Virus record (IMG/VR): IMGVR_UViG_2537561934_000015
Reading direction: 5' to 3' (one strand)
Length of the DNA stretch: 29,584 bases
Source: a virus
Lineage: Duplodnaviria; Heunggongvirae; Uroviricota; Caudoviricetes
The number at the start of each line of letters is the position of its first letter. Position 1 is the stretch's first letter. The notes beneath the pieces were generated by a model. The model did not search any database and was not told where the DNA came from. It was given only the letters and a program-made list of their open reading frames with translations. A program made the position numbers and the translations under genes. Below are positions 1 to 6,014 of this stretch, in pieces.

Positions 1-216
1 GCGGTTATTCGTGAAAAGGAAGAAACACTGAAACAACGAGTGATCCGCGCGCTGGCGGGGTTTTCGGGTTACGGGCGGGTGATGGTTGTCGGTGGCGGGG
101 CGGAGATTGTGGCACCCGCTATCCGCGAAGCCTGCGGAGTTAATGCGACTTTCATCGCGGACGGGGTGCCACAGTTTGCTCTGGTTAATGGGCTGTACGC
201 AATGGACAAGGAGTAA
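1..216 (+). CDS. parM: ParM-like actin-type plasmid segregation ATPase, C-terminal fragment (5' end outside window)
   Basis: Frame 1 is open from the window edge to TAA at 214-216. The translation ends ...FSGYGRVMVVGGGAEIVAPAIREA...FALVNGLYAMDKE, which matches the recalled C-terminus of R1 ParM/StbA (FSGY..VMVIGGGAE ... LVNGMY). A ParR-like gene follows immediately. Confidence 0.7.
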   Translation, partial: AVIREKEETLKQRVIRALAGFSGYGRVMVVGGGAEIVAPAIREACGVNATFIADGVPQFALVNGLYAMDKE

Positions 217-220
217 ACCA

Positions 221-535
221 ATGACGACTCCAACCAGACGGATAAGTTTCTATCTGAAGCCAGCAGCCGTCAAGAGTGAACGAGAAGCGTGTAATTATCT
301 CGACAGCCTGCCAGCCTCCGAACGCAGCCGCGCGCAACGCGCGGCATTTCTGGCTGGACTGGCGCTTATTAAAAGCGATCCCGCCTTTGCTTACTGGCTG
401 GCTGAATGGCAGGAAGAGGAAGCAATACCACCAAGAAATAACATCCGAAACAAGCATACTGGCACATCTGCAACAGAAAACAGTCACAGTAAGAGCCAGT
501 TAAAAAGGAACATTCAGGAGTTTTTCCCAGAATAA
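221..535 (+). CDS. parR: ParR-like partition adaptor (ribbon-helix-helix centromere-binding protein)
   Basis: ATG at 221 follows AGGAG at 207-211. N-terminus RRISFYLKPAAV...YLDSLPASERSRAQRAAFLAGLALIKSDP aligns by eye with recalled R1 ParR (RRTIAFKLNPDV...TLDSIPQGERSRLNRAALTAGLALYRQDP). Gene order parM then parR matches R1. The six-frame ORF 86-535 is the same frame, extended upstream of the likely start. Confidence 0.7.
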   Translation: MTTPTRRISFYLKPAAVKSEREACNYLDSLPASERSRAQRAAFLAGLALIKSDPAFAYWLAEWQEEEAIPPRNNIRNKHTGTSATENSHSKSQLKRNIQEFFPE

Positions 536-539
536 CCTA

Positions 540-566
540 CAAACACCCTTCACGGGTGTTTTTTCA
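540..566 (+). terminator. Rho-independent terminator after parR
   Basis: Stem aaACACCC (540-548), loop TTCAC, stem GGGTGTtt, followed by a T-run at 560-565, 5 nt after the parR stop. Confidence 0.6.
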
Positions 567-574
567 TGTTTACC

Positions 575-667
575 CTAATAATCGATCTGTTAAACAGATA
601 GATATTGATTTATCTATCGATTAAAACGATCAATACCCTTGACAGTTGTATGGGATTTTGTAGGATC
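575..667 (+). promoter_or_regulatory. Palindrome cluster (operator-like) plus sigma70-like promoter
   Basis: Perfect 7-bp inverted repeat ATCTGTT-A-AACAGAT, then ATAGATA...TATCTAT and recurring ATCGAT. TTGACA at 639-644, then a 16-17 nt spacer and TAGGAT at 661-666, read toward the small ORFs downstream. Confidence 0.4.
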
Positions 668-844
668 GATCACGATATGACCACTTTGTTTGTGTGTCAT
701 GCATAGGAAAACGCCCCAATAGCGGTAACTATTGGGGCGCCAAAGAAATCGAGGTGTCATCTACCTCTTGAGCTCGCCGGAATCGTATTTTCTGCGTGTG
801 CCCATGTAAAGGTGAACACCTCATTTTATTGAGGTAAATCAAAT

Positions 845-1123
845 ATGGGTATAAAGATTTGTAAAAACTCCCACCGATACAACCCCCAATACTCACACCT
901 TCCCGATAACCAGGGACAGACAGGCCGCCACCGCTGCGCTGCCTGCGCATACGAGCTTGGTGTACTTCACGCAATGATCGGTATTCCTAAAGCTAAAGAT
1001 GATTCCTTCCTGGCAAATATTCCATATAGCCAGGCTGGCACAGTCAGACATAAAGACGCCTTTGAGGCATACATGCTTGGGTACGACTATGCAATGAGCA
1101 GCGCACTGCTCAAAGCTGCATAA
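845..1123 (+). CDS. Hypothetical small protein (92 aa), accessory
   Basis: ORF with GAGG about 9 nt upstream of the ATG. A hairpin CCACCTC-N13-GAGGTGG lies at about 1142-1168 after the stop. No family recognised. Confidence 0.4.
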   Translation: MGIKICKNSHRYNPQYSHLPDNQGQTGRHRCAACAYELGVLHAMIGIPKAKDDSFLANIPYSQAGTVRHKDAFEAYMLGYDYAMSSALLKAA

Positions 1124-1189
1124 CGATTTCTGCTTTTTCACCACCTCAACAATAGTTGGAGAGGTGGTTCTTCTGAAAAGGATAATCAA

Positions 1190-1477
1190 ATGACCGATAT
1201 TAAAAGAAGCGATTTATTTTATGACGATTACAGTTGGACTGCTTTGCCAGGAGATGATCCCACGAAAACCGCTGCTGACCGCCATCGGTTTAGCCGCAAA
1301 GAGGGTTATGAAGTACTAAATATGCTTAATTCCTTTAAGGCATACTCCCTGAAAGAGAAACTCATTGTCGAATGGATGATTCACGAACACTTACCATCAG
1401 GTATTCAGGGAAGGGAAAATGTTAAAGACTGGATTAAACAAAACTTCCTCAAATTCAAGTTAATTTATCCACGCTGA
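1190..1477 (+). CDS. Hypothetical small protein (95 aa), accessory
   Basis: ORF starting ATG 1190, same strand as parMR and the preceding ORF. No recognisable motif. Confidence 0.45.
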   Translation: MTDIKRSDLFYDDYSWTALPGDDPTKTAADRHRFSRKEGYEVLNMLNSFKAYSLKEKLIVEWMIHEHLPSGIQGRENVKDWIKQNFLKFKLIYPR

Positions 1478-1773
1478 CTGAATATCAGAGAATGAAACCC
1501 TGAACGGGCGCACAAACGAAACGAGCGTGCCATGCCCGACGCACATACAAAGGCGGAGATGCACTCTCCGCCTCATAGTGGTTAACGCATTTAGAAAACA
1601 TCAAATTTGTCAAACAATCTTTCATATTAACCCCTCCAGATTCAAGCACACTCTGGGATTGTTGTTAGCTAGTCACTGGGATTTTGCGTTTATAGTTTCA
1701 CCTCGCCCAATCCACTGAAATTTTTAGTCAACTCAAGCTAACGCGCGTGTTAAATATATGCTCATTTTCAAAC

Positions 1774-1800
1774 TGCACAATAGTGCACAAACTTGCACAA
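1774..1800. repeat. Three direct TGCACAA repeats with 10-bp phasing
   Basis: TGCACAA at 1774-1780, 1784-1790 and 1794-1800. Nearby are GGATCCGT twice (about 1844-1862) and the palindrome AAAAAAACGCGTTTTTT (about 1869-1886). Confidence 0.5.
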
Positions 1801-2224
1801 TTTTTTTGAACGCCTTTTTGCCCTTCCGGCCCGCGTGGCGGCTGGATCCGTCAAGGATCCGTGCGTGCACAAAAAAACGCGTTTTTTCTGCGCGCAGGTG
1901 ACGGGGGAACAGCCCGCGTTTCAGAGGGTAAATAGCATCCCCTGAACGATGTCGCAGCGACACAACAGAATGGCTGTATTTCTCACGCTGAGCGTGAAAA
2001 AGACGTGAGGGCTTTTGATTTGATGGGGTGGAAAATAAGGCCGTCAAAATCGCACTGAGGCGGCGAGAACATGCAGTCAGCGCAGTGGGATTGCGTAAGA
2101 GTCTGACCATCGATGATGGCAATAAGCAGGAAAGCGTCGTGAAATTATCTGATTGATACAGGAGCTGGAGAGTCGGGGCATAAATTTTTTATGCCCCGGC
2201 GAAGCAGCAGACAAGCGAAGCGCG

Positions 2225-3271
2225 TCAGGATGTGGGCTGGGTGTCTAACAGTGCGTAAGGGTTAAAGCGGATCACCTCTTCGCCAAGCCAGTCATTGATG
2301 TGCTTCATGGCCTCCATGACGGGCATCAGCTCGTTAATTGCGTAAACCCGCGCGGCCTTCTCCACATCACCAAACGCACTTTTTTCACCCGGCATCGCCC
2401 CCATCAGTTGCGGCGGAACGCGGTGCGCAGCCAGCACATCATCACGGGATGCCGCCTTAACATTCATGAACTCATCCTTTGCGGTGATCTGCTGGAACGG
2501 CAAAATTTGCACCCCCTCTTTACCCCCGTTAGGCGCATGAATGAGCACGTTTTTAAACGCACCACCACCACGCGCACCCTGTAGCGTTTCTTTCAGGGAG
2601 TCCATGCTTTCGCGGTTTACCTGCGCTGCGCCGATGTAGATGATGCACCCGGCGTGGGATCCGTTGTCGTAATACAGTTTTCTGAACATGTCCGCCGAAT
2701 GAGACAGGCTGGCCGAGAGTAATGCGCCGAGATATTCCGGCATGCCGTAGATTTCCTGGTTAATGTCCGGATTCATCAGGTGGCACACTTTGCCAGGGCG
2801 AAACTGGAACGCGTCCTTGCCATCCTGCACATACCACCATGATTCAAGATCGCTTCCGCGTCGCATGTATTTCGCCAGGGCGTGCCGTAATTTAAGCGGT
2901 TCACCGAGCATATTGCTTCGAAGCTCAAGGAATGCGTTACCGAACACAAACCAGTCCAGCGCCAGCGCCGAGAAATCCTGCCGGGAAAGCAGCGGGTGCG
3001 GAATATAGCAACCGAGCAATACATTGCGCTTAAAGTAAAGCGCAGACTGATGCCAGGACGTTTGCCGGGCAGCTCTTGCCAGACCGTACCAGTCCACCGG
3101 GGTTTCATACCACCGCCCGTTATCAGCACAGTACATATTGTCCAGCAGGTCATGCCCGGTCAGGCGATAAGGACCATCAAATGTGAATGCACTGAGCGAT
3201 GATTCTTTCCTGAGCGCATCAGCGAGATCAATGCGTGAACTCATGCGCACTTTTTTATTTTTTCTGCTCAT
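2225..3271 (-). CDS. Q: Portal protein (P2 gpQ-like)
   Basis: 348-aa ORF on the minus strand, directly downstream of the terminase gene as in P2. Length and position fit gpQ (about 344 aa). Confidence 0.85.
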   Translation of the reverse strand: MSRKNKKVRMSSRIDLADALRKESSLSAFTFDGPYRLTGHDLLDNMYCADNGRWYETPVDWYGLARAARQTSWHQSALYFKRNVLLGCYIPHPLLSRQDFSALALDWFVFGNAFLELRSNMLGEPLKLRHALAKYMRRGSDLESWWYVQDGKDAFQFRPGKVCHLMNPDINQEIYGMPEYLGALLSASLSHSADMFRKLYYDNGSHAGCIIYIGAAQVNRESMDSLKETLQGARGGGAFKNVLIHAPNGGKEGVQILPFQQITAKDEFMNVKAASRDDVLAAHRVPPQLMGAMPGEKSAFGDVEKAARVYAINELMPVMEAMKHINDWLGEEVIRFNPYALLDTQPTS

Positions 3272-5022
3272 CAGAACTCCATAACCGTGAAACGCTCGTT
3301 TTCTCCTTCGCCGCCAATCGGTTCGTTAATGACAGCAAGCATGGTCGCCCACGCAAGGTCGCCGTGGCTGATCCCCCTCGCGCGGTCCGTTTCGTAAGTG
3401 ATAAAGCCGCCCGGTGTTTTCACCTTACGCACGGCGTTAAAGGCCGCGACCAGCTCGCGTTCGGCGCGATCATATTCCCACCGCCCGGCACGCATTATTT
3501 GCAGCATTTTCAGTACCAGCGACCGTTTTGATGACAGCGTGAAGGTGTACGGAATGGCAGCAGGGAAAAACCGTTTCACTATCTGATAAACAGCCTCCCC
3601 GTTCCCGCCCGTCACATCAATGCCGATGTGTTCCACGTTGTAGCGACACGTGAACTCTTCAATGACTCTGGCCTGTTCTTCAAACTCCAGCCCCTGAACG
3701 CGTCGCGTCTCCACCGTTCGAAAACGGCCTCCAGGAACAGCCGGAGGAACCACCACGGACACTGCGCCGCTGTCGCCGTTTCCACTGCTGCCGTTTGCGT
3801 CATACCCAATCCATACCGGACGATTCCCCATCGGGCGGGGAGCAAAAGGTTTCCAGTCTTTCCAGTCGTCGTATCCGTCAACACCGCAGCCAATCAGGAT
3901 ATTCAGGTTAAATGCCGACTCCCCTTCGCGGACAAACTCACACATATAGAGATTGCGGAACTCGTCTTCGGTGTTTTCATCACGAATCTCGTCAATATCG
4001 GTGTGTTTCCAGCCGTGATTAACCACATCTTCCAGCGTGACAATTTGCCGCCACGTCCGGTCAGGGCAGATAAGCCCGTTATGCAGCGTTTTCCAGTCCA
4101 CAGAAAAACGCTGGCGTTTATGCGCGGCCTTTTTCTCGTTCCAGCGGTCGCCGTTCCAGTAGGCGTATGCCTCGTGCGTTTCGGTGGATGGCGTGGAGAA
4201 GTAGGTGCGCCGCAGTCCGCTGAGGGTTGCCATAGCGCCAGCCACCTTGCGCAGTTCAGCAAAGCGACTGACCCAGAAAAATTCATCAAAATAAAAATTG
4301 CCTGTGTAGGACTGTGCCGTCGCAGCAGAAGTACCGAGAAAATGCAGCTCTGCGCCGTTGGAGAGGATGATTTTATCGCCCCCTTTCAGCTCCACATCAA
4401 CTTCAGATGCAGCCTTCTGAATAATGCTTTTAAACTGGAACGCCTGACGACGCGACGCAGACAAAAAAATCTGGTTACGCTGGTAAGGTTGCGCCACATC
4501 GTCACGCAGCGCCATCAGCAGTGCTTCCTGTGCAAAATACCAGGTCGCTCCAATCTGTCGGGATTTCAGGATCATCCTGTTACGTATCCCGGCTTCCCTG
4601 CAAAGTGTCAGGGAGTCAAACCAGCCCCGCTGATGCCACTCCAGCCTGCTGATGATTTTTTCCCGCAGTGCGGCAATCTGTTCCGGCGTGAAATGATTTT
4701 TGAGTTTTTTCGCCCGGCTTTTCTTTCCTGTGGCCGTCGCATCCGGCTGGCCATCATGCAGTTTTTTAAGCTGCCGGGTCAGCAGGTCTATTTCCTTGAA
4801 GTCACCACCTGTTTTATTCTGTTTTTCAGTAAGCTGGATGAGGCGCGCATCGATGGACTGCGTGACACGCTGCACGGGTGGCGTTTCATCCCACTGGTCG
4901 CGTTTTTTCCACGCATAAATCGTGTTCGGGTTTATTCCCATCAGACGTGATATTTCTGCGGGCGGATAACCCTGCCAGTAAAGTTGCCGCGCACGCTGGC
5001 GCACAAAAGCGTCCTGAATCAT
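3271..5022 (-). CDS. P: Terminase large (ATPase) subunit (P2 gpP-like)
   Basis: 583-aa ORF, divergent from O with a 155-bp intergenic region as in P2. Carries a Walker-A-like segment GVDGYDDW...GYDANGSSGNGDSGA. Confidence 0.85.
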   Translation of the reverse strand: MIQDAFVRQRARQLYWQGYPPAEISRLMGINPNTIYAWKKRDQWDETPPVQRVTQSIDARLIQLTEKQNKTGGDFKEIDLLTRQLKKLHDGQPDATATGKKSRAKKLKNHFTPEQIAALREKIISRLEWHQRGWFDSLTLCREAGIRNRMILKSRQIGATWYFAQEALLMALRDDVAQPYQRNQIFLSASRRQAFQFKSIIQKAASEVDVELKGGDKIILSNGAELHFLGTSAATAQSYTGNFYFDEFFWVSRFAELRKVAGAMATLSGLRRTYFSTPSTETHEAYAYWNGDRWNEKKAAHKRQRFSVDWKTLHNGLICPDRTWRQIVTLEDVVNHGWKHTDIDEIRDENTEDEFRNLYMCEFVREGESAFNLNILIGCGVDGYDDWKDWKPFAPRPMGNRPVWIGYDANGSSGNGDSGAVSVVVPPAVPGGRFRTVETRRVQGLEFEEQARVIEEFTCRYNVEHIGIDVTGGNGEAVYQIVKRFFPAAIPYTFTLSSKRSLVLKMLQIMRAGRWEYDRAERELVAAFNAVRKVKTPGGFITYETDRARGISHGDLAWATMLAVINEPIGGEGENERFTVMEF

Positions 5023-5177
5023 TGCTCCCCCTGAGTAATTACAGGAAGATTACCCGCGCGCGAAACCGTTCTCCTTAACCCCCTGTTCTGGCCGTTTTCT
5101 TACAACAAAAGCCCTTTGTATCAGCCTGTTACGCTTTGCCATCATGACTGAAGAACCAGTCAGAGGGGCAAAAAACT
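5023..5177. promoter_or_regulatory. Divergent intergenic region between P and O (expected late promoters)
   Basis: By position only: in P2 this interval holds the divergent Ogr-dependent late promoters. I did not find an unambiguous TGT-N12-ACA dyad by eye. Confidence 0.35.
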
Positions 5178-6014
5178 ATGACTAATGAAAAAAAGACATC
5201 CCGCAAAAAGTTTCGCGTGGCTGTCTCCGGTGTGACGGCAGACGGGCGCGAAATAAACGGCGACATGCTGAAAGCTGCCGCCACTAGTTATAACCCGTCC
5301 GTTTATGGTGCACGTGTGAATATTGAGCACATCCTGTCACCACTCCCCGGTAGCGAGTTTTCCGCTATGGGCGATGTTGTGGGGTTGAGCACCGAAGACA
5401 TAACCGATGGCCCGCTGGCAGGTCGCACGGCACTGTATGCCGAAATTGAGCCGACCGCTCGCATGATGTCCCTGCTTAACGATGGTAAAAAAATTTACTC
5501 CAGTATTGAGCTGGAACCACAGTCAACCATCACGGGAGGCCCTTACCTGCGCGGGCTGGCAATGACCGACACCCCCGCCAGCCTGGGCACGGAACGTCTG
5601 GCCTTTGCGGCACAACAACGTATGCAACTGATGACATTCAACTGTCAGCAGGGAGACGTGGCGATGTTCACCGCCGCTATGGAGTCAGAACTTATCGAAC
5701 TCACCGAACAACGTCAGGAAGAAGGCACCCAGTGGTTTAACCGCGTTATGGGGATTATTGGCCGTGGCCGCAAAGCGGATGACGCCAGTTTCTCCCGTAT
5801 TCAGGAAGCGGTGGAAGGTGTCGCAACGTCACAGGCCGACATTATCGACCGTTTTAATGCACTGGAAACCCGCCATCAGCAGGACAGCCAGAAAATCACT
5901 TCGCTGACCACAGAGCTGACAACACTGAAGGAAAAGTTGCGCACGCAGGACGGCGATCCGCAGAACCGGTTCACCGCAACGGGCGCAGCCTCCGACCAGC
6001 TGGCTGACTTCTGA
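5178..6014 (+). CDS. O: Capsid scaffolding protein (P2 gpO-like)
   Basis: 278-aa ORF in the gpO position and size, with a GAGGGG ribosome-binding site. Confidence 0.85.
   Translation: MTNEKKTSRKKFRVAVSGVTADGREINGDMLKAAATSYNPSVYGARVNIEHILSPLPGSEFSAMGDVVGLSTEDITDGPLAGRTALYAEIEPTARMMSLLNDGKKIYSSIELEPQSTITGGPYLRGLAMTDTPASLGTERLAFAAQQRMQLMTFNCQQGDVAMFTAAMESELIELTEQRQEEGTQWFNRVMGIIGRGRKADDASFSRIQEAVEGVATSQADIIDRFNALETRHQQDSQKITSLTTELTTLKEKLRTQDGDPQNRFTATGAASDQLADF

What the first reader, a model, noticed from the sequence alone, without database searches (positions are those of the whole stretch)
566..1477. Operator-like palindrome cluster and two unknown small genes at the tin/old-equivalent position
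A dense set of perfect palindromes sits just upstream of a good sigma70-like promoter that would drive two small ORFs (92 and 95 aa) of no recognisable family. Small gene pairs with an autoregulatory-looking operator at a phage accessory locus are candidates for toxin-antitoxin, anti-defence or superinfection-exclusion functions.
Basis: partly seen in the sequence, partly recalled or inferred. Interest (0 to 1): 0.5.

Follow-up and report, generated by a model that had tools for sequence, protein, structure and literature searches.

The report
Antisense-gated zinc-protein cassette in prophage
At the accessory-gene hotspot of a P2-like E. coli prophage sits a small self-contained cassette (palindromic operator, promoter, a previously unnoticed antisense RNA and a locked start codon) that tightly gates a 92-aa zinc protein from a large unnamed family otherwise attached to GATC restriction-modification systems, followed by an unrelated small defence-island gene; what either protein does is untested.

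Summary
Four copies of an 11-bp half-site form two 23-bp quasi-palindromes (581-603, 612-634) just upstream of a strong sigma-70 promoter (TTGACA 639 / TAGGAT 661). Both ORFs are genes under strong purifying selection. The interpretation needs revision. The two genes are not a pair. ORF1 with its operator, promoter and leader occurs alone in 166 other E. coli genomes, and ORF2 occurs alone in defence islands and prophage ends of other genera. The palindromes are not the ParMR centromere: only about 13% of ParMR prophages and no plasmid carry them. It would make a ~70-nt RNA antisense to the ORF1 leader, ending at the hairpin 739-712. ORF1 is a Cys/His two-repeat protein from a large unnamed family (at least 1,555 clusters). 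In bacteria that family sits inside Dam-like/DpnII (GATC) restriction-modification operons and is fused to HNH or NOV_C nucleases, DndB/DpdB and WYL regulators. My best reading is a triple-gated moron releasing a DNA-recognition module conditionally. The architecture is well supported; the function is inferred.

The parts
221..535 (+). parR (StbB-type partition adaptor). Left neighbour, not part of the cassette.
   Evidence: Pfam PF10784, E=3.7e-26; annotated in relatives.
541..567 (+). Intrinsic terminator of parMR. It marks the left border of the cargo.
   Evidence: Terminator scan. In L002 a 97-bp insertion separates parR from the palindromes.
581..603 (.). Operator O1: ATCGATCTGTT-A-AACAGATAGAT, centred about -81 from the predicted transcription start.
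   Evidence: conserved in L011-type and L097-type cassettes.
612..634 (.). Operator O2: ATCTATCGATT-A-AAACGATCAAT, centred about -50 and 31 bp from the centre of O1. It contains the GATC (628-631) that is invariant upstream of the -35.
639..666 (+). Promoter P(+): TTGACA (639-644), 16 nt, TAGGAT (661-666). Predicted start about 673. GATCGATC (664-671) overlaps the -10 and +1.
   Evidence: GATC-N6/7-TTGAnn-N16-18-TAnnAT is present in 15/15 variants.
673..844 (+). Structured 5' leader of the ORF1 mRNA. Hairpins at 677-700, 712-739 and 751-767. The stem at 797-855 pairs the anti-SD CACCTC (817-822) with the SD GAGG (831-834), and CCCAT with the ATG.
   Evidence: Folding z=-4.6 and -3.6. The start codon is paired in 12/18 variants. 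The leader is 91% identical to L097 while ORF1 dS=1.6.
782..810 (-). Antisense promoter P(-): TTTACA (810-805), 17 nt, TACGAT (787-782).
   Evidence: Present in 73/79 viral loci (32/37 unique upstreams) against 2/78 bacterial loci; background 0.008 per 120 nt.
704..775 (-). Predicted cis-antisense sRNA of about 70 nt: a 5' hairpin, then the terminator hairpin (739-712) and a TTTTCC tail.
   Evidence: z=-4.5. The hairpin is kept through compensatory changes, 7 of 8 pairs. It sits at a constant distance from P(-) in 15 variants. No Rfam family.
845..1123 (+). ORF1, 92 aa. Two repeats of LPxxQGxxGRH(R/K)CxxCAYxxG; C6, H10, C31 and C34 are (near-)invariant.
   Evidence: AF2 model pLDDT 80. dN/dS 0.02.
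1139..1175 (+). Intercistronic hairpin with a weak T-rich tail (partial terminator), followed by the ORF2 SD AAGGA (1177-1181).
   Evidence: z=-3.4; sequence.
1190..1477 (+). ORF2, 95 aa. An independent family, co-transcribed here by read-through.
   Evidence: AF2 model pLDDT 86. dN/dS 0.06-0.09.

Best explanation
The interval is the cargo of the gpA-cos hotspot of a P2-like (P88-like) prophage. It consists of two independently mobile modules.

Module 1 (about 577-1175) is a self-contained, triple-gated moron.
(i) Transcription from P(+) is set by a protein bound at the two dyad operators O1 and O2, which lie on the same DNA face at about -81 and -50. It is probably also set by the Dam methylation state of the GATC at -45 and at -10/+1.
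(ii) The 172-nt leader is covered over about 70 nt by a small RNA made from a conserved opposing promoter inside the leader.
(iii) The Shine-Dalgarno sequence and the AUG are buried in a conserved stem.
The product, ORF1, is a small Cys/His (presumably zinc-binding) two-repeat protein. Its family is an accessory gene of Dam-like/DpnII (GATC) restriction-modification operons, and it occurs as the non-catalytic module of HNH and NOV_C nucleases, DndB/DpdB and WYL regulators. I therefore read it as a nucleic-acid-recognition or regulatory module.

Inferred mechanism. ORF1 is held off in the lysogen. It is released when the antisense RNA is lost or P(+) is derepressed, for example when transcription is shut off by an infecting phage or when hemi- or unmethylated DNA replicates. 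It then acts on DNA or on a GATC-methylation-dependent process, giving exclusion or abortive infection in the manner of a type I toxin-antitoxin switch.

Module 2 (ORF2) is an unrelated small gene of defence islands and prophage ends. Here it rides on read-through from P(+).

Shown by sequence and comparison: the operators, both promoters, the antisense terminator, start-codon sequestration, the independence of the two genes, and the family's link to restriction-modification. Inferred: all binding partners, Dam dependence, the existence and lability of the RNA, toxicity, and any phage phenotype.
For: Context.

The module is separable. A ~76%-identical block of operator, promoter and hairpin with an ORF1 homolog alone is found in 166 E. 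coli genomes. The same cassette design sits at moron sites of lambdoid and other temperate phages, near Q, tail fibres or a CI-like repressor.

P(+) with an invariant GATC 6-7 nt upstream of the -35: 15/15 variants.

Antisense promoter TTTACA-N17-TAnnnT: the hexamers are conserved while the spacer diverges. Found in 73/79 viral loci against 2/78 bacterial loci.

A GC hairpin with a T-rich tail starts 32-44 nt downstream of the predicted start in 14 of the 15 enterobacterial variants listed. Its sequence differs between variants but pairing is kept: 7/8 pairs covary, and G.U pairs favour the minus strand 10 to 2.

The leader is more conserved than synonymous sites. The start codon is paired in 12/18 variants, and the TGTAAA-to-start distance is 28-34 nt in 17/18.

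ORF1 family size and fusions.

Neighbours of 78 solo homologs: a Dam-like D12 methyltransferase in 37 loci; at least one of D12 MTase, N6_N4 MTase, DpnII or a DUF6997-type protein within 3 genes in 47 of 78. A DpnII-like operon with an overlapping ORF1 homolog is seen in metagenomic contigs.

ORF2 independence and contexts.
Against: - No expression data. The RNA and both promoters are predictions.
- The antisense terminator tails in the enterobacterial variants are only moderately T-rich (about 4 of 8). A hairpin is symmetric, so it could instead serve the mRNA.
- ORF1 is hydrophilic and 92 aa, unlike classical type I toxins. Nothing shows that it is toxic.
- The O1/O2 centres at -81 and -50 fit an activator as well as a repressor.
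- The operators follow the P2/ParMR backbone rather than the ORF1 allele, so ORF1 may not be their ligand.
- No GATC enrichment is seen upstream of family members in bacterial loci.
- Neither protein matches a PADLOC model.
- No structural relative exists to support DNA binding.
Confidence: 0.5

Rival explanations
1. ORF1 is a counter-defence or restriction-alleviation factor rather than a host-protective one. It would be an orphan of the R-M accessory protein that the phage uses to modulate Dam-type methylation or to block or mis-time GATC-type restriction systems, as Ral/Lar do for type I systems or as pre-expressed C proteins do for incoming R-M systems.
For: The family's constant partner is the Dam-like methyltransferase, while the nuclease family varies. 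P2-like hotspots elsewhere carry orphan Dam-like methyltransferases next to ORF2. Pre-expressed R-M regulators are known to derail incoming R-M systems (PMC12707154).
Against: Enterobacterial hosts are Dam+, so GATC-cleaving DpnII-type enzymes are not an obvious threat (established knowledge). The hotspot mostly carries defence genes (PMC9122126). Heavy repression in the lysogen is not needed for a harmless anti-restriction factor.
Confidence: 0.2
2. ORF1 is simply an autoregulating transcription factor, a non-HTH analogue of R-M controller (C) proteins. It would bind O1/O2 and control its own promoter, and thereby ORF2, with no toxic or exclusion role.
For: Dyad operators lie next to its own promoter. 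Other cassette types carry different short inverted repeats at the same position. The family sits in R-M operons where regulators are expected and is fused to the WYL and DndB/DpdB regulator classes.
Against: O1/O2 are shared by ORF1 alleles only 56% identical, yet are absent from a 61%-identical allele. In most genomes there is no downstream gene to regulate. In bacterial operons the gene is often last or convergent. One operon already has an HTH C protein.
Confidence: 0.15
3. The palindromes belong to the ParMR partition system, either as a second centromere or as a ParR-controlled operator.
For: They lie 46 bp downstream of parR. The ATCGAT-type palindromes are found only in ParMR-carrying P2-like prophages.
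Against: The parM end occurs at 1,412 places in 1,279 E. coli genomes, but the palindrome block at only 179. No match in 72,556 plasmids. ParMR prophages with other cargo lack the palindromes. In L002 they are separated from parR by an insertion and stay with ORF1. ParR is only 54% identical between prophages with near-identical operators. A better parC candidate, two 42-nt repeats, lies upstream of parM.
Confidence: 0.07
4. ORF1 and ORF2 form a two-protein toxin-antitoxin or two-component accessory system driven by an autoregulated promoter.
For: The two genes are adjacent, co-oriented and 66 nt apart, with one promoter.
Against: Only 7 of 173 E. coli genomes with the cassette have both genes. 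ORF2 homologs stand alone in Pectobacterium, Pseudomonas, Janthinobacterium, Pseudoalteromonas and Roseateles. ORF1 homologs have other partners. No TA family matches.
Confidence: 0.04

Closest known systems
IS10 transposase control (Dam-sensitive pIN plus antisense RNA-OUT from the opposing pOUT). From my own knowledge of the Kleckner-lab work.
   Same: A promoter carrying GATC, an opposing promoter inside the 5' region that makes a ~70-nt stem-loop antisense RNA, and very low default expression of a potentially harmful protein.
   Different: Here the antisense RNA pairs with the leader upstream of the ribosome-binding site and not with the start region. Dyad operators and a start-codon-burying stem are added. 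The product is not a transposase. Dam dependence is untested.
Type I toxin-antitoxin modules (hok/sok, tisB/istR-1, symE/symR, ralR/ralA).
   Same: A cis-encoded small antisense RNA against a structured, translationally closed mRNA leader, carried on prophages and mobile elements. symE and ralR show that the toxin need not be a membrane peptide.
   Different: ORF1 is a hydrophilic 92-aa Cys/His protein with no similarity to any known toxin. Toxicity and RNA half-lives are unknown.
Controller (C) proteins and the other regulatory layers of type II R-M systems (PMC12707154).
   Same: A small accessory gene inside R-M operons. Dyad sites next to its own promoter in the phage copy. Antisense RNA and promoter methylation are established R-M control modes.
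   Different: No HTH. A new Cys/His two-repeat fold with no Pfam or PDB relative. Its position in operons is variable. It can coexist with an HTH C protein.
Phage Mu mom control (Dam/OxyR-regulated promoter, start codon in a stem opened by the zinc-finger protein Com). From my own knowledge.
   Same: GATC-dependent promoter logic, a sequestered start codon, a link to DNA modification, and a small zinc protein in the circuit.
   Different: No sequence relation to Com or Mom. Here the zinc protein is the regulated product and not the translational activator.
P2 tin/old and other cargo of the gpA-cos hotspot (PMC9122126, PMC13586616).
   Same: The same genomic slot, its own promoter, and cargo that varies between related prophages.
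   Different: No known defence family matches. Antiphage activity is untested. ORF1 was not found in the text of those papers by term search.
PADLOC candidate PDC-S36 (two Cys/His repeats plus a NOV_C/DUF3883 nuclease).
   Same: It shares the repeat unit of ORF1.
   Different: ORF1 has no nuclease domain, and its second repeat has lost the Cys ligands.

Membership tests
Type I toxin-antitoxin | An antisense RNA gene overlapping the toxin mRNA | tested here: met
   A conserved opposing promoter and hairpin terminator lie inside the leader. This is a prediction only; there are no RNA data.
Type I toxin-antitoxin | The toxin is a small (usually under 60 aa) hydrophobic peptide or a demonstrated toxin | tested here: not met
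   ORF1 is 92 aa and hydrophilic, with net charge about +3 and no hydrophobic segment (sequence).
Type I toxin-antitoxin | Growth arrest on toxin expression; labile RNA against a stable mRNA | not testable with these tools
   Needs expression and RNA half-life experiments.
Type II toxin-antitoxin pair | Two adjacent genes inherited together | tested here: not met
   ORF1 alone in 166 genomes, both genes in 7. ORF2 alone elsewhere.
ParMRC centromere (parC) | Repeats bound by ParR that accompany parMR, normally upstream of parM | tested here: not met
   Present at 179 of 1,412 parM places. Absent from plasmids. Located downstream of parR. Other repeats lie upstream of parM. ParR binding was not tested.
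R-M controller (C) protein | Helix-turn-helix fold of the Xre/C family | tested here: not met
   No Pfam HTH. The AF2 model is a Cys/His helical repeat. No PDB relative.
R-M controller (C) protein | Gene embedded in an R-M operon | tested here: not met
   Met for the family: 47/78 bacterial loci. Not met for this copy or the phage clade, which have no R-M genes nearby.
R-M controller (C) protein | Binds dyad C-boxes at its own promoter | tested here: inconclusive
   Dyads are present, but they do not track ORF1 alleles. Binding is untested.
Dam-regulated promoters (IS10 pIN, mom, pap, agn43 type) | GATC inside the core promoter or regulator sites | tested here: met
   GATC at -45 in 15/15 variants. 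GATC overlaps the -10 in the window and in 5 further variants.
Dam-regulated promoters (IS10 pIN, mom, pap, agn43 type) | Activity depends on the methylation state | not testable with these tools
   Needs dam+/dam- reporter assays.
P2 hotspot anti-phage systems (tin, old and others) | Cargo between gpA and cos with its own promoter | tested here: met
P2 hotspot anti-phage systems (tin, old and others) | Homology to a known defence protein, or shown protection | tested here: not met
   No PADLOC hit for either ORF. Protection is untested.
PDC-S36 candidate defence nuclease | Cys/His repeats fused to a NOV_C nuclease | tested here: not met
   The repeat is shared, but there is no nuclease domain and ORF1 does not hit the PADLOC model.

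The most novel reading that the evidence does not exclude
The Cys/His two-repeat domain is a previously unrecognised reader of GATC adenine-methylation state. R-M operons built on Dam-like methyltransferases would use it as a methylation checkpoint, and single-gene nucleases (HNH or NOV_C fusions, PDC-S36) would use it as their targeting module. The prophage cassette would then be an epigenetic, antisense-gated switch: GATC-bearing operators and promoter, plus an antisense RNA. It would release a nuclease-free version of the domain to mark or block foreign DNA whose GATC methylation differs from the host's. That would be self/non-self discrimination without cleavage.
Probability: 0.12. Interest if true: 0.85.

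Novelty: new variant of a known kind. Interest (0 to 1): 0.6.

Why it matters
Three things follow if the reading holds.

(1) It defines a large protein family with no name and no Pfam, NCBIfam or PDB relative: at least 1,555 clusters at 90% identity and 502 representatives at 50%. The family is a recurrent fifth element of GATC-type restriction-modification operons and a module of candidate defence nucleases. The 2025 review of R-M regulation read here, as far as its regulatory sections were read by term search, describes promoter methylation, MTase-repressor fusions, antisense RNA and HTH C proteins, and that search turned up no zinc-protein accessory.

(2) It gives a compact, portable regulatory design: operator, Dam-marked promoter, opposing sRNA promoter and a locked start codon. 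Temperate phages of Enterobacterales reuse this design at several moron sites. It makes clear, cheap predictions for Northern blots, dam mutants and reporter fusions.

(3) About a fifth of P2 hotspots have no recognisable defence gene (PMC13586616). This cassette accounts for the cargo in about 3% of complete E. coli genomes (173 of 5,426), so it is a natural candidate for the next round of functional screens.

If instead the cassette has no phenotype, the finding reduces to an annotated moron of unknown function.

Tried and rejected
- Pfam, NCBIfam and PADLOC gave nothing for either ORF. PHROGs gave only families of unknown function.
- Rfam gave only sub-threshold hits to terminator-like hairpins (NsiR1 29.6 bits against a gathering score of 39; sar) at 705-766 on the minus strand. 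No family was found in 11 related loci.
- Centromere idea: rejected on distribution.
- I looked for a GATC operator as a family-wide feature. There is no enrichment upstream of 35 bacterial homologs with an intergenic region (0.49 GATC per 200 nt).
- A weak 40-nt match of 598-636 in 755 IncF-like plasmids lies upstream of a TonB heme-receptor gene. It has E=5 and is not palindromic there, so I treated it as chance.
- I compared O1/O2 by eye with OxyR, Fur, LexA, IHF, TyrR and LacI-family sites. None fits, and the non-conserved spacer argues against Fur. H-NS-like AT-rich motifs cannot be excluded.
- ORF2 has no homolog in 50,697 phage records and no common upstream architecture among its homologs.
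- The literature searches found no description of either family, of PDC-S36 or of DUF6997.
- The search for related loci with the broad alignment failed, so the narrower alignment was used.
Full report
CONTEXT. The first 2.3 kb of the window match E. coli chromosomes at up to 97% identity. The annotated gene order there is replication endonuclease gpA, parM, parR, two hypothetical genes, then portal and terminase on the other strand. Sequenced relatives are P88-like P2-type phages. The finding therefore lies in the gpA-cos hotspot, which in P2 holds tin and old. About a quarter of E. coli P2-like prophages carry a partition system at this hotspot (PMC9122126). In the window, parR is 221-535 (PF10784) and its terminator is 541-567. 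The portal gene starts at 3271 on the minus strand.

The 54 bp from 581 to 634 contain four copies of an 11-bp half-site: ATCGATCTGTT, ATCTATCTGTT, ATCTATCGATT and ATTGATCGTTT. They form two inverted pairs, O1 (581-603) and O2 (612-634), with centres 31 bp apart. The degenerate motif occurs nowhere else in the window (4 found, 0.28 expected). The motif was derived from these sites, so that test is partly circular. The more telling evidence is comparative. In the two related cassette types, O1 and O2 change at 1-3 of 46 positions, while the 8-nt spacer between them changes at 4-5 of 8.

O2 ends 4 nt before TTGACA (639-644). The -10 is TAGGAT (661-666); together they match 10 of 12 consensus positions. 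Four GATC lie within 88 bp, the densest cluster in the window.

Both ORFs are real genes. dN/dS is 0.02 for ORF1 and 0.06-0.09 for ORF2. They belong to PHROG families 3941 and 33929.

THE PALINDROMES ARE NOT THE CENTROMERE.
- The 3' end of parM is found at 1,412 places in 1,279 of 5,426 complete E. coli genomes. The palindrome block is found at 179 places in 173 genomes. No match was found in 72,556 plasmids.
- ParMR prophages with other cargo start that cargo 20 bp after parR and have no palindromes.
- In one relative, an insertion of about 97 bp separates parR from the palindromes, which stay with ORF1.
- Two 42-nt direct repeats with an ACGGGA-N8-TCCCGT dyad lie upstream of parM and are a better parC candidate.

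THE TWO GENES ARE NOT A PAIR.
- 166 E. coli genomes carry, at the same slot, a ~76%-identical copy of window 577-739 (operators, promoter and first leader hairpins). It is followed by a diverged leader and an 89-aa ORF1 homolog alone, then a terminator and cos. Only 7 genomes have both genes.
- ORF2 homologs (41 clusters, 44-99% identical) occur singly: in a Pectobacterium P2-like hotspot next to a Dam-like methyltransferase, at a Pseudomonas prophage end, between an XhoI-type R-M system and Gabija in Janthinobacterium, next to a SIR2 protein in Pseudoalteromonas, and next to a tRNA gene in Roseateles.
- ORF2 has no homolog in 50,697 phage records and no fold relative.
- In the window, ORF2 follows a hairpin with a weak T-tail (1139-1175) and has its own Shine-Dalgarno sequence. 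It is probably read through from the ORF1 promoter.

A HIDDEN ANTISENSE GENE. On the minus strand, TTTACA (810-805), 17 nt and TACGAT (787-782) form a promoter-like site. It is followed by two hairpins. The second is the perfect 11-bp stem at 739-712 with a TTTTCC tail (z=-4.5).

I collected ORF1 cassettes from IMG/VR and from GTDB genomes. In 73 of 79 viral loci (32 of 37 distinct upstream sequences), TTTACA-N16-18-(T/C)AnnnT lies on the minus strand within 110 nt upstream of the gene. The corresponding figure is 2 of 78 for bacterial loci, and the background is 0.008 per 120 nt. Between cassette types the hexamers and the 17-nt spacing are kept, while the spacer sequence and the -10 vary (TACGAT, TAAAAT, TAGACT, TAGTCT, TAATCT, TACAAT, CACAAT).

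A GC-rich hairpin starts 32-44 nt after the predicted start in 14 of the 15 enterobacterial variants listed. Its sequence is different in each type, and 7 of 8 consensus pairs show compensatory changes. G.U pairs favour the minus strand 10 to 2. Tails are T-rich. They are moderate in the enterobacterial types and full T-runs in the three distant ones. No Rfam family covers this RNA.

The predicted ~70-nt RNA (about 775 to 704) is fully complementary to the middle of the ORF1 leader and stops short of the ribosome-binding site.

A LOCKED START CODON. The 3' part of the leader folds so that CACCTC (817-822) pairs with the SD GAGG (831-834), and CCCAT pairs with the ATG (z=-4.6 and -3.6). Across 18 cassette variants the TGTAAA motif lies 28-34 nt from the start codon in 17. 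The start codon has an unpaired probability of 0.11 or less in 12. The partners differ between variants: CCCAUG/AUGGG, GCAUUC/GAAUG and CAUGUAA/UUACAUG. Between the window and a relative whose ORF1 synonymous sites are saturated (dS=1.6), the 173-nt leader is 91% identical. The non-coding leader is therefore under constraint.

THE PLUS-STRAND PROMOTER IS CONSERVED AND MARKED BY GATC. All 15 enterobacterial variants have GATC-N6/7-TTGAnn-N16-18-TAnnAT at 141-176 nt from the antisense -35. In the window and five further variants the -10 runs into a GATC as well. Other cassette types have different short inverted repeats ending in that GATC: TGATCA-N5-TGATCA, ATCAGC-N5-GCTGAT and CACTT-N2-AAGTG. 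Two distant variants have a perfect DnaA box there instead.

The cassette sits at classic moron positions in unrelated temperate phages: near the Q antiterminator, near tail-fibre genes, and next to a CI-like repressor. It is therefore an autonomous module.

WHAT ORF1 IS. A word-indexed search found 7 relatives. A full profile search found 502 representatives at 50% identity, and a profile search of the 90% clusters found 1,555, all unnamed and without a Pfam domain.

The protein is an internal duplication: LPDNQGQTGRHRCAACAYELG and IPYSQAGTVRHKDAFEAYMLG. C6, H10, C31 and C34 are invariant or nearly so, which I read as a zinc site. The AF2 model is confident (pLDDT 80) but has no relative in the PDB.

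Fusions place the domain:
- at the C-terminus of a WYL regulator;
- at the C-terminus of DndB/DpdB proteins;
- at the N-terminus of an HNH_2 nuclease;
- as two Cys-containing repeats in front of a NOV_C/DUF3883 nuclease, which is PADLOC candidate PDC-S36.

Among 78 solo homologs in species-representative genomes from many phyla, the immediate neighbours are MethyltransfD12 (15), N6_N4_Mtase (11), the DpnII endonuclease (10) and a DUF6997/7226/6996 protein (11). Second neighbours add 14, 11, 6 and 1. By clustering, 47 of 78 loci have at least one of these within three genes, and the Dam-like methyltransferase is present in 37. Metagenomic contigs show the gene overlapping the start of a DpnII-like two-methylase operon that also has a MutH-like nuclease and an HTH C protein.

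The constant partner is the Dam-like methyltransferase, and the nuclease family varies. The phage clade has left this context. GATC is not enriched upstream of the bacterial copies.

WHO BINDS O1/O2 IS OPEN. The window-type and the common E. coli type share the operators, although their ORF1 proteins are only 56% identical. A lambdoid type with 61% identity has other repeats. ParR is 54% identical between the two operator-sharing types. The centres at about -81 and -50 would suit an activator as well as a repressor. A partial half-site, ATCGATC, overlaps the -10 and +1. ORF1, ParR, another P2-backbone protein or a host factor all remain possible. I give ORF1 autoregulation about even odds among them.

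MECHANISM I COMMIT TO (confidence 0.5 for the whole; about 0.8 for the architecture and about 0.3 for the function). This is a triple-gated moron. Transcription depends on the operator and probably on Dam. The leader is covered by an antisense RNA. The start codon is buried. The default state in the lysogen is off. Loss of the antisense RNA or promoter de-repression releases a small DNA-recognition protein, which gives exclusion or abortive infection.

The closest working analogues are IS10 control (Dam-sensitive pIN plus RNA-OUT) and type I toxin-antitoxin modules with non-peptide toxins (symE, ralR). Those comparisons rest on my own knowledge. The known layers of R-M control are taken from PMC12707154. 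The cassette fails the membership tests for a classical type I toxin, a type II pair, parC, an HTH C protein and every PADLOC family.

RIVALS. A restriction-alleviation or counter-defence role (0.2). A plain autoregulator (0.15). A ParR-controlled site (0.07). A two-protein pair (0.04).

VERDICT. The 'pair' and 'centromere' ideas fall. The new elements are an antisense sRNA, start-codon sequestration, a GATC-marked promoter, and a very large unnamed domain family linked to restriction-modification. Together they make this a good experimental target, and every functional statement remains inference.

Noticed in passing
L001 3114-3155 and 3187-3228 (upstream of parM, outside the window): Two 42-nt direct repeats 73 bp apart, each holding the dyad ACGGGA-N8-TCCCGT. 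They straddle the end of gpA and the parM promoter and are a likely parC of this prophage ParMR system.
   Followed up: partly
window 1-535 compared with L097 and L120-L153: ParM is 96-100% identical between prophages whose ParR is only 54-68% identical. parR alleles appear to be exchanged independently of parM.
   Followed up: no
window 1478-1775: The stretch between ORF2 and the conserved cos-proximal sequence occurs in only 2 of 5,426 E. coli genomes. It folds strongly (hairpin 1551-1573). On the minus strand a GGAGG-N7-ATG opens a 47-codon frame (sequence; the frame is listed as the 54-aa GTG-start ORF 1485..1649). Unexplained.
   Followed up: partly
L164 about 3700-3760; L168 about 3720-3780: Distant phage cassettes (ORF1 about 42% identical) keep the antisense promoter and a clean T-run terminator. 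They carry a perfect DnaA box, TTATCCACA, upstream of the -35 in place of the GATC.
   Followed up: no
L004 (Pectobacterium P2-like prophage) 1-5303: This hotspot holds a ClpX-type zinc-finger gene, a Dam-like methyltransferase and an ORF2 homolog. A CbtA/CbeA toxin-antitoxin pair lies upstream of gpA.
   Followed up: no
L174 491-8303; L175 2443-4285; L006 1-5303: ORF2 homologs sit between an Eco57I/XhoI-type R-M system and Gabija (OLD-like TOPRIM plus UvrD helicase), next to a SIR2_2 protein, and near a patatin and a UvrD-like helicase. ORF2 behaves as a single-gene passenger of defence islands.
   Followed up: partly
P0049 (182 aa), P0105 (890 aa), P0123 (290 aa): Further architectures of the ORF1 domain: a tandem duplication of the whole domain; an N-terminal copy on an 890-aa protein with no Pfam domain; and a fusion with weak DUF3644/HEC-08-like similarity.
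   Followed up: no
L046-L050, L055, L060, L069-L071 (Bacteroidales and others): A recurrent operon of a Dam-like methyltransferase, a 425-aa DUF6997/DUF7226/DUF6996 protein and the ORF1 homolog. The 425-aa protein is probably an uncharacterised restriction endonuclease partner. No literature was found on DUF6997.
   Followed up: partly
L002 5888-6145: A related cassette (ORF1 plus a 79%-identical ORF2) sits in a different P2-like backbone, with portal only about 30% identical. There an Ogr/Delta-like zinc-finger gene lies between the cargo and the portal gene.
   Followed up: no
L177 2501-2540 (IncF-like plasmids): A weak 40-nt resemblance to window 598-636 lies upstream of a TonB-dependent heme receptor gene in 755 plasmids. 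It has E=5 and is not palindromic there, so I judged it chance.
   Followed up: yes
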